NCBI RefSeq assembly: GCF_044324875.1
Contig: NZ_CP172185.1
Direction: 5' to 3' (one strand)
Length of the DNA stretch: 64,000 nt
Source: Escherichia coli
Lineage (GTDB): Bacteria; Pseudomonadota; Gammaproteobacteria; Enterobacterales; Enterobacteriaceae
The notes below the pieces were generated by a model. The model saw nothing but the letters and a program-made list of their open reading frames with translations. It had not been told where the DNA came from and ran no database searches. Position numbers and translations under genes: made by a program. Shown in pieces: positions 39,341-43,256 of the stretch (its first letter is position 1; the number at the start of each line of letters is the position of its first letter).

Positions 39341-41845
39341 ATGTCACAAACTATCGACCTGACCCTGGACGGCCTGTCCTGCGGTCACTGCGTTAAACGC
39401 GTGAAAGAAAGTCTCGAACAGCGCCCGGATGTTGAGCAGGCGGATGTGTCTGTCACTGAAGCGCACGTTACCGGGACTGCCAGTGCAGAACAGCTGATCG
39501 AAACCATCAAACAAGCGGGTTATGACGCATCTGTAAGCCACCCAAAGGCTAAACCGCTGGCGGAGTCATCAATCCCGTCGGAAGCACTGACAGCGGTTTC
39601 TGAGGCGCTTCCGGCAGCGACCGCCGATGACGATGACAGCCAGCAGTTGCTGCTGAGCGGCATGAGCTGCGCCAGCTGTGTCACCCGCGTACAAAATGCG
39701 TTGCAAAGCGTACCGGGCGTCACTCAGGCACGGGTAAACCTGGCGGAGCGTACTGCGCTGGTGATGGGCAGTGCCTCCCCACAAGATTTAGTGCAGGCGG
39801 TGGAAAAAGCGGGCTACGGCGCGGAAGCGATTGAAGATGACGCTAAACGCCGCGAGCGCCAGCAGGAAACCGCCGTCGCTACGATGAAGCGCTTCCGCTG
39901 GCAGGCAATTGTCGCACTGGCGGTGGGTATCCCGGTGATGGTCTGGGGGATGATCGGCGATAACATGATGGTCACCGCTGACAACCGCAGCTTGTGGTTA
40001 GTTATCGGCCTGATAACCCTGGCAGTGATGGTTTTCGCCGGCGGCCATTTTTACCGTAGTGCATGGAAAAGCCTGCTGAACGGTGCAGCGACGATGGATA
40101 CGCTGGTGGCGCTGGGTACTGGCGTGGCGTGGCTCTATTCGATGAGCGTCAACCTGTGGCCGCAGTGGTTCCCGATGGAAGCGCGACATCTTTATTACGA
40201 AGCCAGCGCGATGATTATCGGTCTGATCAATCTCGGTCATATGCTGGAAGCGCGCGCACGTCAGCGTTCTTCAAAGGCGCTGGAGAAATTACTCGATTTA
40301 ACCCCACCGACGGCGCGCCTGGTCACCGACGAAGGTGAAAAAAGCGTGCCGCTGGCGGAAGTGCAGCCAGGTATGTTGCTGCGCCTGACGACCGGCGATC
40401 GCGTGCCGGTAGATGGCGAGATTACCCAGGGCGAAGCATGGCTGGATGAAGCGATGCTGACGGGCGAACCAATCCCGCAGCAAAAAGGCGAAGGCGATAG
40501 CGTCCATGCCGGGACAGTGGTACAGGACGGCAGTGTGCTGTTTCGTGCCAGTGCGGTCGGCAGCCATACTACGCTGTCACGAATCATTCGCATGGTGCGC
40601 CAGGCCCAGAGCAGCAAGCCTGAAATCGGCCAACTGGCGGATAAAATCTCCGCTGTGTTTGTGCCGGTGGTGGTAGTCATTGCGCTGATCAGTGCGGCAA
40701 TCTGGTATTTCTTTGGTCCGGCACCGCAGATTGTCTATACCCTGGTGATTGCCACCACGGTGCTGATTATCGCCTGTCCGTGTGCGCTGGGACTGGCGAC
40801 GCCGATGTCGATTATTTCGGGCGTCGGGCGGGCGGCTGAGTTTGGTGTGCTGGTGCGGGACGCCGACGCGCTGCAACGCGCCAGTACGCTCGACACCGTG
40901 GTGTTCGATAAAACCGGGACGCTGACCGAAGGGAAGCCGCAGGTTGTCGCAGTAAAAACATTTGCTGATGTTGATGAAGCGCAAGCATTGCGTCTGGCGG
41001 CGGCGCTGGAGCAAGGTTCCAGCCACCCGCTGGCACGGGCGATCCTCGATAAAGCAGGTGATATGCAGCTACCGCAGGTCAACGGTTTCCGCACATTGCG
41101 CGGGCTGGGTGTGAGCGGTGAAGCTGAAGGTCATGCGGTATTGCTGGGCAATCAGGCGCTGTTAAATGACCAGCAAGTTGATACTAAAGCGATTGAGGCA
41201 GATATTTCAGCTCAGGCATCGCAAGGTGCAACGCCTGTGCTGCTGGCGGTTGACGGGAAAGCGGTAGCCCTGCTGGCTGTACGCGATCCGTTGCGTAGTG
41301 ATAGCGTGGCGGCGCTGCAACGCCTGCATAAAGCGGGATATCGTCTGGTGATGTTGACCGGGGATAACCCAACCACCGCCAATGCGATCGCCAAAGAAGC
41401 AGGGATTGATGAGGTGATAGCCGGCGTGCTGCCGGACGGTAAAGCCGAAGCGATCAAACGTCTTCAAAGTGAAGGACGTCAGGTGGCAATGGTGGGCGAC
41501 GGCATTAACGATGCGCCAGCGCTGGCTCAGGCGGATGTCGGTATTGCGATGGGTGGCGGCAGTGATGTTGCCATTGAAACCGCGGCGATTACCCTGATGC
41601 GCCATAGCCTGATGGGTGTTGCAGATGCGCTCGCGATTTCCCGCGCAACGCTGCGCAATATGAAGCAGAACCTGCTCGGTGCGTTTATCTACAACAGCAT
41701 TGGTATTCCGGTCGCCGCCGGTATTTTGTGGCCGTTCACTGGAACACTGCTTAACCCGGTGGTTGCCGGAGCGGCAATGGCGCTCTCGTCGATTACCGTA
41801 GTGAGTAACGCCAACCGGTTACTGCGGTTTAAACCGAAAGAGTGA
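39341..41845 (+). CDS. copA: Copper-exporting P-type ATPase
   Basis: 834 aa; two N-terminal GxxCxxC metal-binding motifs, CPC, DKTGT and GDGINDAP motifs. Confidence 0.97.
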
Positions 41846-42273
41846 TTGGTATTTACTTAATGCGTTTGTGAGATCCAGTTCTTGTTGCGCTCCTTTTATG
41901 AGTCATGCCATATAAAGTGACTGGCGCAGGGAGCGCGCAGGGGGCGGCCAATCGCCGCCGCCCCCTGCCCCCCCGGGCTCTGGCGAACAAAATCGCCGCT
42001 GCGCGGTACCCTCAGCTTATCCCTTGCGGCTACCGGGTCGGGCGCGAGGTAACATCCCTGTAAAACGCGCCCTCAGCCCACATCCATGTGGGCTGCCCCG
42101 GCCTTCAGGGAACGCCTCGGCGATTTTGACGCCACCAACACCGGTGCAGTCTTTCGTTTCAAAGCAAAAACAATTTTTCGATCATATTTAAGCTACCACT
42201 GAACAAGCCTCATAACTCCATTTGCGCCATCCCTCCCCGCGCGCTAGCATGATATTTCACAAAGGGAGGTCGT

Positions 42274-43068
42274 ATGGATCTGTTGTACCGGGTAAAAACG
42301 CTTTGGGCCGCGCTGCGCGGTAATCATTACACCTGGCCTGCTATCGATATCTCTCTTCCCGGCAATCGCCATTTTCATCTGATTGGCAGTATTCATATGG
42401 GTAGCCACGATATGGCTCCCCTGCCCACCCGTTTGCTCAAAAAGCTCAAAAACGCCGATGCGCTGATCGTCGAGGCGGATGTTTCCACCAGCGATACGCC
42501 TTTTGCTAATTTGCCTGCCTGCGAGGCGCTGGAAGAGCGCATTAGCGAGGAGCAACTCCAAAATCTGCAGCACATTAGCCAGGAGATGGGCATTTCTACC
42601 TCACTCTTTTCTACCCAACCGCTGTGGCAAATCGCGATGGTTCTTCAGGCGACGCAGGCACAAAAACTGGGGCTGCGGGCAGAATACGGTATCGATTACC
42701 AGCTATTGCAGGCGGCGAAGCAACAACATAAACCCGTGATTGAACTGGAAGGGGCTGAAAACCAGATTGCCATGTTGCTCCAGCTCCCTGACAAAGGACT
42801 GGCGCTGCTGGACGATACGCTGACCCACTGGCACACCAATGCACGGTTGCTGCAACAAATGATGAGCTGGTGGCTGAATGCGCCGCCGCAAAATAATGAA
42901 ATAACGCTGCGTAATACGTTCAGTCAATCGCTGTACGATGTGCTGATGCATCAGCGAAATCTCGCCTGGCGGGACAAATTATGCGCCATGCCGCCGGGGC
43001 GCTATGTGGTCGCAGTCGGTGCACTACACCTGTATGGAGAAGGGAATTTGCCGCAGATGTTGCGCTAA
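42274..43068 (+). CDS. ybaP: TraB-family protein YbaP
   Basis: 264 aa, synteny between copA and ybaK. Confidence 0.85.
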   Translation: MDLLYRVKTLWAALRGNHYTWPAIDISLPGNRHFHLIGSIHMGSHDMAPLPTRLLKKLKNADALIVEADVSTSDTPFANLPACEALEERISEEQLQNLQHISQEMGISTSLFSTQPLWQIAMVLQATQAQKLGLRAEYGIDYQLLQAAKQQHKPVIELEGAENQIAMLLQLPDKGLALLDDTLTHWHTNARLLQQMMSWWLNAPPQNNEITLRNTFSQSLYDVLMHQRNLAWRDKLCAMPPGRYVVAVGALHLYGEGNLPQMLR

Positions 43069-43256
43069 AAAAATGGCCAATATCGCTATTGGCCCGTCAA
43101 AGAGGAATTTCATATTTTTATTATTATGCCGTCACTTTAAGCGACGGTGTAACTCGATTGTCGCTCAATCTCACCATCCTGCCAATACTCTTAGGCAAGA
43201 TGACTCTTTTTTTTGGACCGCCATCAGGCGTATGCTTGCTTCGTTTTTTTGTTTAA

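What the first reader, a model, noticed from the sequence alone, without database searches (positions are those of the whole stretch)
41846..42273. copA-ybaP intergenic region has no ORF but two strong GC-rich palindromes
From memory, K-12 has a small HTH gene (ybaQ) between copA and ybaP on the opposite strand; I am not certain of this. In all six frames I find no ORF of 60 aa or more here. Instead there is a 12-bp stem hairpin (41937..41968, gcagggggcggc/gccgccccctgc) and a perfect 22-bp palindrome (42074..42095, cagcccacatccatgtgggctg). Either the gene is lost or replaced in this strain, or my recollection of K-12 is wrong.
Basis: partly seen in the sequence, partly recalled or inferred. 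Interest (0 to 1): 0.4.

Follow-up and report, generated by a model that had tools for sequence, protein, structure and literature searches.

The report
TRIP1e / RRS repeat replacing ybaQ
In this E. coli strain the small ybaQ gene between copA and ybaP is replaced by a copy of a known GC-rich, strongly folding repeat (TRIP1e, of the "replication risk sequence" family); the element and this site for it are already published.

Summary
There is no ORF of 60 aa or more, a 12-bp GC hairpin lies at 41937-41968, and a 10+2+10 near-palindrome (not a perfect 22-mer) lies at 42074-42095. In the window, 360 bp (41842-42201) with no similarity to the K-12 allele replace 727 bp of K-12.

The core, 41884-42149, is TRIP1e as described by Li et al. 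2024: 38 bp after copA, 124 bp before ybaP, about 265 bp. About 346 of 5,426 complete E. coli genomes carry this allele.

TRIP1a and TRIP1c are the "replication risk sequences" (RRS) of Pham, Cox and Goodman. The window copy is 96-97% identical to them over the 223-bp core. It keeps 19 of 20 bases of their G-quadruplex motif, on the strand inferred to be the lagging-strand template. It is an extra copy, co-oriented with RRS-lysO.

The most likely mechanism, by analogy only, is a replication-triggered single-strand gap on the ybaP side, plus a role as a recombination substrate.

Two results here were not found in the papers searched. The fold is strongly supported by compensatory changes in 38 enterobacterial copies. 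The inner domain resembles the Rfam TwoAYGGAY motif and carries CsrA-like GGA loops, but it scores below the family threshold.

Verdict: already known; modest interest.

The parts
39341..41845 (+). copA CDS (flank). Its last codons are the left breakpoint of the variable cassette: GAG TGA here, GAA TAA in K-12.
41842..41883 (.). Allele-specific left flank of the cassette. It has no counterpart in the K-12, higBA or deletion alleles.
   Evidence: The identical flank follows copA in the MAG contig L020.
41884..42149 (-). TRIP1e repeat. The structured, G-rich strand is the window - strand.
   Evidence: 93.7% identical to K-12 TRIP1a and 92.3% to TRIP1c over 271 bp. The position matches Li et al. 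2024: 38 bp after the copA stop, 124 bp before the ybaP start. GC content 65%.
41922..42144 (-). 223-bp core corresponding to the 222-bp RRS.
   Evidence: 96.9% identical to RRS-lysO and 96.4% to RRS-dusC. Klebsiella homology is confined to this span.
41955..41974 (-). G-quadruplex motif GGGGGGGCAGGGGGCGGCGG. It overlaps the 5' arm of the 12-bp hairpin, so the two structures are alternatives.
   Evidence: 19 of 20 bases match the published RRS G4, GGGGGTGCAGGGGGCGGCGG. G4Hunter score 2.12, against 1.84 for K-12.
41937..41968 (-). 12-bp GC stem with an 8-nt loop.
   Evidence: Ten of 11 modelled pairs are invariant in 38 homologs. The base of the stem covaries in the Hafnia/Ewingella subfamily.
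41887..41936 (-). 3' domain: stem GCGCUCC/GGAGCGC enclosing a variable apical hairpin.
   Evidence: Compensatory C-G to U-A change in Enterobacter copies.
41969..42149 (-). Multi-branched domain closed by a long P1-like stem (arms 42113-42149 and 41969-42003).
   Evidence: Helices 1-2 have 10 pairs with compensatory changes.
41990..42129 (-). Sub-threshold match to Rfam TwoAYGGAY (RF01731).
   Evidence: 31.5 bits against a gathering score of 43, E = 0.017.
42074..42095 (-). Hairpin CAGCCCACA-UGGA-UGUGGGCUG containing ACAUGGAUGU.
   Evidence: A-U to G-C compensatory change in 18 of 38 copies. L054/L055 have a wholly different stem around the same loop.
42040..42072 (-). Hairpin GGGCGCG...CGCGCCC carrying UUACAGGGAUGU.
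   Evidence: One mismatch to the CsrA SELEX consensus RUACARGGAUGU.
42004..42035 (-). Hairpin carrying AAGGGAUAAG.
   Evidence: The GGA is conserved except in Kluyvera, which has GGC.
42150..42201 (.). Allele-specific right flank. The first ~25 nt are weakly similar to the flanks of other TRIP1 copies.
42202..42273 (+). ybaP upstream region shared by all alleles. It is the right boundary of the variable cassette.
42274..43068 (+). ybaP CDS (flank).

Best explanation
The interval is the TRIP1e allele of the copA-ybaP spacer. A ~270-bp GC-rich repeat of the TRIP1 family, with about 40-50 bp of private flank on each side, sits where most E. coli carry ybaQ (higA-like), alone or with higB and REP/BIME units.

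[quoted passage not shown] Proposed mechanism (inferred, not shown for this copy): when the fork passes, the window - strand is the lagging-strand template. It folds quickly into a G-quadruplex or 12-bp hairpin plus a multi-branched domain. Okazaki-fragment synthesis coming from the copA side stalls at about 41955-41974. This leaves a transient single-stranded gap of up to ~2 kb on the origin-proximal side (ybaP, chiX, ybaK), which SSB and RecA would load. As a 93-95% identical dispersed repeat it is also a substrate for homologous recombination with the other TRIP1 copies.

What is shown: the identity, position, orientation, sequence features and conserved fold. What is inferred: gap formation at this locus.
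For: Identity and position:
- 271 bp are 93.7% identical to K-12 TRIP1a and 92.3% to TRIP1c.
- The coordinates match the published TRIP1e description.
- About 346 of 5,426 complete genomes carry the allele.

RRS features:
[quoted passage not shown] Orientation:
- Window(-) corresponds to K-12(+) both for the flanking genes and for TRIP1a.
- GC skew of the window + strand is -0.026.
- In CFSAN018748, which has a 100% identical allele, TRIP1e and TRIP1a lie on the same strand, 481 kb apart, in a region collinear with K-12.

Published function of the family:
- In vitro, gaps form essentially every time a replisome meets the element in that orientation (PMC13308219).
- Rearrangements between TRIP1e and TRIP1a, and between TRIP1e and TRIP1c, are reported. 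A TRIP1e/1c hybrid next to copA was seen here in L020.

Fold:
- z-scores of -6 to -7.
- 99.1% of cells paired, and 19 of 65 pairs with compensatory changes.
Against: - No experiment exists for TRIP1e itself.
- Its G4 motif differs by one base (T to G) from the tested one.
- It is not at the canonical position symmetric about dif, so the proposed role as a topological relief valve at the Ter boundary does not obviously carry over.
- Natural TRIP1a copies inverted relative to their flanks exist (O157:H7; 1255 of 4703 genomes in Li et al.). Orientation relative to the fork is therefore not strictly maintained in nature.
- The invariant GGA-containing loop sequences are not explained by a purely structural replication block.
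- Only about 6% of genomes carry the copy, so it is dispensable.
Confidence: 0.8

Rival explanations
1. The element works mainly as RNA. The - strand would be transcribed into a TwoAYGGAY-type structured RNA whose hairpin loops (ACAUGGAUGU, UACAGGGAUGU, AAGGGAUAA) bind CsrA or another sequence-specific protein, for example as a small sponge or as a UTR element.
For: - Sub-threshold but repeated TwoAYGGAY matches on the same strand in TRIP1e, TRIP1a and TRIP1c: 31.5, 30.6 and 30.9 bits.
- A sibling element next to TRIP1 in Pseudocitrobacter scores 49.2 bits, above the gathering score of 43. It has the same layout: long P1, two GGA hairpins, then a G-rich hairpin.
- Psychromonas seed sequences of TwoAYGGAY carry the same loops, ACAUGGAUGU and ACAGGGACGU.
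- UUACAGGGAUGU is one mismatch from the CsrA SELEX consensus RUACARGGAUGU, which is preferred in hairpin loops.
- TwoAYGGAY has been proposed as a CsrA binder (PMC4333381).
- The loops are invariant while the stems covary.
- G-U cells outnumber A-C cells 22 to 9 on this strand.
- TRIP1c lies just downstream of dusC, with the structured strand in the sense orientation.
Against: - All E. coli copies score below the Rfam threshold.
- No sigma-70-like promoter or intrinsic terminator was found around TRIP1e, TRIP1a or TRIP1c.
- At TRIP1e and at K-12 TRIP1a the structured strand is antisense to both neighbouring genes.
- No CLIP or transcript evidence was found in the literature searched.
- Covariation and G-T tolerance fit folding of single-stranded DNA equally well.
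- The published DNA-level phenotype is direct.
Confidence: 0.15
2. The element is, or was, a non-autonomous mobile or cassette-like repeat. It spreads among intergenic sites, here displacing ybaQ, and has no function at this site beyond being a recombination substrate.
For: - Copy number varies from 1 to 10 places per E. coli genome.
- About 13 places occur in one K. pneumoniae chromosome. Two tandem copies 437 bp apart occur in L009.
- Many Kluyvera contigs end in the repeat.
- Copies lie at different, species-specific intergenic sites.
- TRIP1a is found in both orientations in place.
- The copA-ybaP spacer is a multi-allelic hotspot with fixed boundaries.
Against: - No terminal inverted repeats or target-site duplication are evident at the TRIP1e boundaries.
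- There is no match in phages.
- Plasmid matches are all in records typed non-mobilizable. At least some of these are chromosome-sized or carry chromosomal genes.
- No associated transposase was identified.
- Strong purifying selection on the fold and loops across genera argues for a function.
Confidence: 0.2
3. The interval is a decayed remnant of ybaQ, or a terminator or regulatory region belonging to copA or ybaP.
For: It occupies the position of ybaQ. It lies directly after copA and contains a strong GC hairpin.
Against: - No similarity to ybaQ, to higB, or to the K-12 spacer, even at word size 7.
- A true ybaQ-deletion allele exists and looks quite different (171 bp).
- Neither hairpin is followed by a T-run. 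The only terminator-like site found (41708-41721) lies inside copA, at a rate no higher than in shuffled sequence.
- The same sequence occurs at unrelated loci.
Confidence: 0.02

Closest known systems
TRIP1e repeat (Li et al. 2024, Genes 15:236, PMC10888264; TRIP1 family first described by Rudd 1999)
   Same: Same locus and spacing: 38 bp after the copA stop, 124 bp before the ybaP start. Same length (~265 bp), same identity to TRIP1a (~94%), GC-rich, 'double-Y' fold, minority allele.
   Different: Nothing substantive. Frequency here is 6.4% of complete genomes, against 3.4% of their 6,725 mostly draft genomes. As far as read, they do not mention that ybaQ is displaced.
RRS-lysO and RRS-dusC, replication risk sequences (Pham et al. 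NAR 2023, PMC10287960; NAR 2024, PMC11194060; Kusi-Appauh et al. 2026 preprint)
   Same: The 223-bp core is 96-97% identical. The G4 motif matches 19 of 20 bases. The G4 strand is on the inferred lagging-strand template. The copy is co-oriented with RRS-lysO.
   Different: It is not one of the pair placed symmetrically ~650 kb either side of dif; it lies ~0.4-0.5 Mb closer to the origin than RRS-lysO. It has one base change in the G4 motif. It is present in only ~6% of strains. It has not been tested experimentally.
TwoAYGGAY RNA motif (Rfam RF01731; Weinberg et al. 2010)
   Same: A long P1 closes hairpins whose loops read ACAUGGAUGU and ACAGGGAYGU, in the same order. Both are multi-copy within a genome. 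Both are of unknown function and carry CsrA-like GGA loops.
   Different: It scores 31.5 bits, below the gathering score of 43. It has extra hairpins inside P1, is much more GC-rich, and adds a G-rich hairpin and a 3' domain. The second loop is AGGGAU, not strictly AYGGAY. There is no evidence of transcription.
REP/BIME elements
   Same: Intergenic, GC-rich, palindromic, repeated. K-12 carries several at this same spacer, between ybaQ and copA.
   Different: The sequence is unrelated. REP units are ~35 bp and number in the hundreds per genome, whereas this is a ~270-bp unit with 1-10 copies.

Membership tests
TRIP1 repeat, type TRIP1e | Sequence homology to TRIP1a of about 89-94% over ~265 bp | tested here: met
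   93.7% over 271 bp to K-12 TRIP1a
TRIP1 repeat, type TRIP1e | Located 38 bp downstream of the copA stop and 124 bp upstream of the ybaP start | tested here: met
   copA ends at 41845 and ybaP starts at 42274. The repeat spans 41884-42149 by that rule and 41880-42150 by BLAST.
TRIP1 repeat, type TRIP1e | GC content of 62-65% and a very stable branched fold | tested here: met
   GC 65.4%. Fold energy -147.3 kcal/mol, multi-branched.
RRS (replication risk sequence) | 222-bp GC-rich core homologous to RRS-lysO and RRS-dusC | tested here: met
   96.9% and 96.4% identity over 223 bp
RRS (replication risk sequence) | G-quadruplex-forming motif GGGGGTGCAGGGGGCGGCGG on one strand only | tested here: met
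   GGGGGGGCAGGGGGCGGCGG at 41974..41955 on the - strand. G4Hunter 2.12 on the - strand, against -1.4 (magnitude 1.4) for the complementary strand. This is a sequence-level test only.
RRS (replication risk sequence) | G4 strand is the lagging-strand template | tested here: met
   Inferred from synteny with K-12, GC skew, and co-orientation with TRIP1a in CFSAN018748.
RRS (replication risk sequence) | One of a pair placed symmetrically ~650 kb either side of dif, flanking Ter | tested here: not met
   The locus corresponds to K-12 ~508 kb, about 407 kb origin-proximal to RRS-lysO at ~915 kb, and 481 kb away in CFSAN018748. It is an additional copy, not one of the canonical pair.
RRS (replication risk sequence) | Triggers RecA/SSB-bound lagging-strand gaps when the replisome passes | not testable with these tools
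   Needs ssGAP-seq or a single-molecule replication assay. Published only for the K-12 elements.
TwoAYGGAY RNA motif (RF01731) | Covariance-model score at or above the gathering threshold of 43 bits | tested here: not met
   31.5 bits in the window and 26.6-30.9 bits in other TRIP1 copies
TwoAYGGAY RNA motif (RF01731) | Two terminal loops with AYGGAY, closed by a P1 stem that is often long | tested here: inconclusive
   The first loop, AUGGAU, fits. The second, AGGGAU, does not strictly fit, although a Psychromonas seed sequence also has ACAGGGACGU. The long P1 is present and covaries.
TwoAYGGAY RNA motif (RF01731) | Expressed as RNA | not testable with these tools
   No promoter-like or terminator-like sites were found around the copies. 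No expression data were available.
REP/BIME | Copies of the ~35-bp REP palindrome (GCCGGATGCGGCG...) | tested here: not met
   Present in the K-12 allele. No similarity between the K-12 spacer and the window interval.
Intrinsic terminator | GC-rich stem-loop followed by a T-run | tested here: not met
   No such site within 41846-42273 on either strand
ybaQ / higA antitoxin gene | ~113-aa ORF on the strand opposite to copA | tested here: not met
   No ORF of 60 aa or more. No nucleotide similarity to ybaQ-bearing alleles.

The most novel reading that the evidence does not exclude
The TRIP1/RRS elements, so far treated as DNA-level G-quadruplex roadblocks, contain an evolutionarily constrained TwoAYGGAY-type module. 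This module is a long P1 stem closing hairpins with invariant ACAUGGAUGU and ACAGGGAYGU loops. It is shared with a sibling repeat in Pseudocitrobacter that passes the Rfam threshold, and with the multi-copy TwoAYGGAY elements of Psychromonas.

On this reading the loops are sequence-specific protein-binding sites, for CsrA on RNA or for an unknown single-strand DNA binder on the lagging-strand template. RRS function would then not be explained by the G4 alone. It would also give the orphan Rfam family TwoAYGGAY its first experimentally tractable members.
Probability: 0.3. Interest if true: 0.65.

Novelty: already known. Interest (0 to 1): 0.3.

Why it matters
For annotation, the 'missing' ybaQ is a real allelic replacement and not an assembly or reading error. 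The two palindromes should be labelled as one TRIP1e/RRS-type repeat.

For biology, strains with this allele are natural carriers of an extra replication risk sequence, in the active orientation and away from the Ter boundary. They are ready-made material for two tests. One is whether RRS elements cause programmed lagging-strand gaps wherever they lie. The other is whether extra copies affect chromosome topology or promote inversions with the other TRIP1 copies.

The covariation and the TwoAYGGAY-like, CsrA-like loops raise a testable question: does more than the G-quadruplex matter for how these elements work?

Tried and rejected
1. Remnant of ybaQ. BLAST of the interval against the K-12, higBA, BIME-variant and deletion alleles at word size 7 found nothing between 41842 and 42201. 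Rejected.

2. The 171-bp allele (NZ_CP062824) as an empty insertion site. It retains the last ~20 nt of ybaQ and the sequence upstream of ybaQ. It is therefore an internal ybaQ deletion and does not define TRIP1e junctions.

3. Terminator or promoter. Scans found nothing relevant around TRIP1e, TRIP1a or TRIP1c.

4. Mobile-element carriage. There is no phage match. The 34 plasmid records with matches are all typed non-mobilizable; some are chromosome-sized and some carry chromosomal genes such as rimO or bioA.

5. Formal Rfam membership. No E. coli TRIP1 copy reaches the TwoAYGGAY gathering score. Weinberg's alignment, as far as it is stored, contains Psychromonas and not E. coli or Klebsiella.

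6. Literature evidence for CsrA binding or transcription of TRIP1. None was found.

7. TRIP1 at copA-ybaP in other Escherichia species. None appeared among the 50 loci returned, but the scan returned a round 50 loci and may have been capped there, so this is not evidence of absence.

Full report
**The observation**

The window is E. coli. copA lies at 39341-41845 (+), ybaP at 42274-43068 (+), and ybaK and ushA follow. Between copA and ybaP there is no ORF of 60 aa or more. The hairpin at 41937-41968 has two perfectly complementary 12-nt arms around an 8-nt loop. The second feature, at 42074-42095, is two 10-nt arms around a CC centre that is not self-complementary, so it is not a perfect 22-bp palindrome. 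Neither motif is expected by chance. The 276-nt element folds much better than shuffled sequence, with z-scores from -4.9 to -6.9.

The recollection is right. MG1655 has ybaQ (b0483) between ybaP and copA, on the opposite strand. RefSeq annotates it in most genomes as a HigA-family antitoxin, in some with an adjacent RelE/ParE-family toxin gene. Homology between the window and K-12 ends at the copA stop codon (41841) and resumes at 42202. The 360 bp in between have no detectable similarity to the 727 bp of K-12.

**A multi-allelic spacer with fixed boundaries**

All alleles examined share the same two boundaries. The cassette between them takes four forms:
- higB plus ybaQ (L063)
- ybaQ with a variable number of REP/BIME units (L001, L064-L066)
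- a ybaQ-deletion allele of 171 bp (L005)
- the window allele

About 346 of 5,426 complete genomes carry the window allele. At least 14 of them, mostly porcine ETEC and O139:H1 strains, are 100% identical over the interval.

**What replaced ybaQ**

Window 41880-42150 is a dispersed repeat found at 1-10 places per E. coli genome. K-12 has three copies:
- between aqpZ and lysO (93.7% identical)
- downstream of dusC (92.3% identical)
- a partial copy after putP

These are TRIP1a, TRIP1c and TRIP1b of Rudd 1999. Li et al. 2024 (PMC10888264) surveyed 6,725 genomes and defined TRIP1e as 265 bp, 94% identical to TRIP1a, 38 bp downstream of the copA stop and 124 bp upstream of the ybaP start, always in one orientation, in 232 genomes. 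That description fits 41884-42149 exactly.

TRIP1a and TRIP1c are also the 'replication risk sequences' RRS-lysO and RRS-dusC (PMC10287960, PMC10592627/PMC11194060). These are 222-bp GC-rich repeats that cause RecA- and SSB-bound lagging-strand gaps. The effect is attributed to a G-quadruplex, 5'-GGGGGTGCAGGGGGCGGCGG, on the lagging-strand template.

**Is the window copy a plausible RRS?**

- Core identity. The 223-bp core (41922-42144) is 96.9% and 96.4% identical to the two K-12 RRS.
- G4 motif. The motif is present on the - strand at 41974..41955 with one T-to-G change, which lengthens a G-run. Its G4Hunter score is 2.12, against 1.84 for K-12.
- Orientation. The window - strand corresponds to the K-12 + strand both for the flanking genes and for TRIP1a. 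K-12 coordinate ~508 kb is on the same replichore as RRS-lysO. The window + strand has a GC skew of -0.026, so the - strand has leading-strand composition and is the lagging-strand template.
- Extra copy. In CFSAN018748, which carries a 100% identical allele, TRIP1a is present between aqpZ and lysO on the same strand as TRIP1e, 481 kb away. The region in between shows the K-12 gene order. TRIP1e is therefore an extra copy, co-oriented with RRS-lysO, and not a relocated one.

Pham et al. showed that RRS inserted at three other loci in this orientation each created a new RecA/SSB peak. A 2026 preprint shows gap formation in vitro at essentially every replisome encounter.

By analogy, the most likely behaviour of TRIP1e is as follows. 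Okazaki synthesis arriving from the copA side stalls at the G-rich region. A gap of up to ~2 kb is left toward ybaP, chiX and ybaK. This direction fits the naming of the K-12 elements after the gene on their origin-proximal side. This step is inference. TRIP1e does not satisfy the positional feature of the canonical pair, ~650 kb either side of dif.

**Recombination**

Li et al. report rearrangements between TRIP1e and TRIP1a and between TRIP1e and TRIP1c. A metagenome-assembled contig, L020, carries copA, the private left flank and a TRIP1 copy whose far side matches TRIP1c.

**Conservation of the fold**

This analysis goes beyond the papers read. A scan of one genome per species with the hairpin sequence returned exactly 50 loci, which may be a cap. 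They came from Escherichia, Klebsiella, Kluyvera, Enterobacter and Pseudocitrobacter, plus a divergent subfamily in Hafnia, Rahnella and Ewingella.

On 38 distinct full-length copies, aligned on the G4 strand (A3):
- RNAalifold predicts 65 pairs, 19 of them with compensatory double changes.
- 99.1% of cells are paired, against 38-44% when partners are slid by 1-3 columns.
- No shuffle out of 500 reached the observed pairing or covariation score.
- One-sided changes are mostly G-U on this strand: 22 cells, against 9 A-C cells. This mildly favours folding of the G4 strand.

Three loops are nearly invariant: CAUGGAUG, ACAGGGAYG and AAGGGAUAAG. Their stems change freely; in L054 and L055 the stem around AUGGAU is entirely different.

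This pattern fits a folded single strand with sequence-specific loops. It cannot by itself separate RNA from single-stranded DNA. Because the G4 motif overlaps the 5' arm of the 12-bp hairpin, the two structures are alternatives.

**Link to TwoAYGGAY**

- Rfam's TwoAYGGAY model (RF01731) matches the - strand at 41990-42129 with 31.5 bits. It also matches TRIP1a and TRIP1c on the corresponding strand with 30.6 and 30.9 bits. All are below the gathering score of 43.
- In Pseudocitrobacter faecalis a second element lies head-to-head with TRIP1. It has a long P1, ATGGAT and CAGGAC hairpins and then a G-rich hairpin, and it scores 49.2 bits.
- Psychromonas seed sequences in Weinberg's alignment carry the same loops, ACAUGGAUGU and ACAGGGACGU, and are also multi-copy.
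- UUACAGGGAUGU differs by one base from the CsrA SELEX consensus RUACARGGAUGU.
- TwoAYGGAY was proposed as a CsrA binder by Gardner and Eldai.

Against an RNA role:
- no promoter-like or terminator-like sites flank TRIP1e, TRIP1a or TRIP1c
- the structured strand is antisense to both neighbours at TRIP1e and at K-12 TRIP1a
- no transcript or CLIP evidence was found

I treat this as the main rival, or complement, to the DNA-level mechanism, with low confidence. None of the papers that mention TwoAYGGAY, as listed by the search, are RRS or TRIP1 papers.

**Origin**

No terminal inverted repeats or target duplications were seen. There are no phage copies. The plasmid records with matches are all typed non-mobilizable, and several are chromosome-sized or carry chromosomal genes. 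How the cassette entered this spacer, and which allele is ancestral, remain open.

**Verdict**

The feature is an already published repeat at an already published site. Interest is modest. It rests on two points: these strains are natural carriers of an extra, correctly oriented RRS, and the element shows a possible, untested connection to the TwoAYGGAY/CsrA-type hairpin module.

Noticed in passing
window 43067-43150 (- strand): ChiX (sroB) small RNA, 81 bits on Rfam RF00368. Its 3' end abuts or overlaps the ybaP stop, as in K-12. It would lie inside the ~2-kb single-strand gap predicted on the origin-proximal side of TRIP1e.
   Followed up: partly
L008 2501-2791 (E. coli O157:H7 F1273, aqpZ-lysO spacer): The TRIP1 copy at the aqpZ-lysO locus is inverted relative to its flanking genes compared with K-12, and is only ~90% identical. 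Its G4 strand would therefore be on the leading-strand template. This is a natural 'inverted RRS'. aqpZ is a pseudogene (internal stop) in this strain.
   Followed up: partly
L020 415-728 (MAG labelled 'Proteobacteria bacterium OH_SBlB_131', 2.8-kb contig): copA 3' end, then the private TRIP1e left flank, then a TRIP1 copy whose far side matches TRIP1c. This is either a TRIP1e/1c recombinant junction of E. coli origin or an assembly chimera across the repeat.
   Followed up: partly
L021 2160-2400 (+), Pseudocitrobacter faecalis: A second structured repeat lies head-to-head with TRIP1. It has a long P1, ATGGAT and CAGGAC hairpins and a G-rich hairpin. It passes the Rfam TwoAYGGAY threshold (49.2 bits).
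   Followed up: partly
L038, L039, L042, L045, L048, L049, L052, L053 (Hafnia, Ewingella, uncultured Enterobacterales): A divergent subfamily shares only the G-rich hairpin, whose stem base covaries (CGAG/CTCG, CCAG/CTGG, CCTG/CAGG). The hairpin is followed by GGTGTGGGCCGACGCCCAC and runs of TTGAAG/TTGAAT hexamers.
   Followed up: no
L009 1007-1744 (K. pneumoniae strain 176): Two near-identical TRIP1-type copies in tandem, 437 bp apart. This chromosome has about 13 places matching the repeat, far more than E. coli.
   Followed up: no
L054 (583-bp contig, coverage 0.7, labelled Bacillus sp. EB106-08-02-XG196): A TRIP1 copy in a tiny low-coverage contig of a Bacillus assembly. This is almost certainly enterobacterial contamination.
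   Followed up: no
PLSDB records (e.g. CP125156.1 5.37 Mb, NZ_CP141089.1 4.94 Mb, NZ_CP095250.1 30 kb with rimO): Several records labelled as plasmids are chromosome-sized or carry chromosomal genes. Repeat matches 'on plasmids' in this collection should therefore not be read as evidence of mobility.
   Followed up: partly
L063 758-1437 (E. coli NRZ96052a) versus L001 (K-12): Some strains keep a RelE/ParE-family toxin gene directly upstream of ybaQ, forming a higBA-like pair. K-12 ybaQ therefore looks like an orphan antitoxin left after loss of the toxin gene. The copA-ybaQ spacer also varies with the number of REP/BIME units (57 to ~517 bp).
   Followed up: partly
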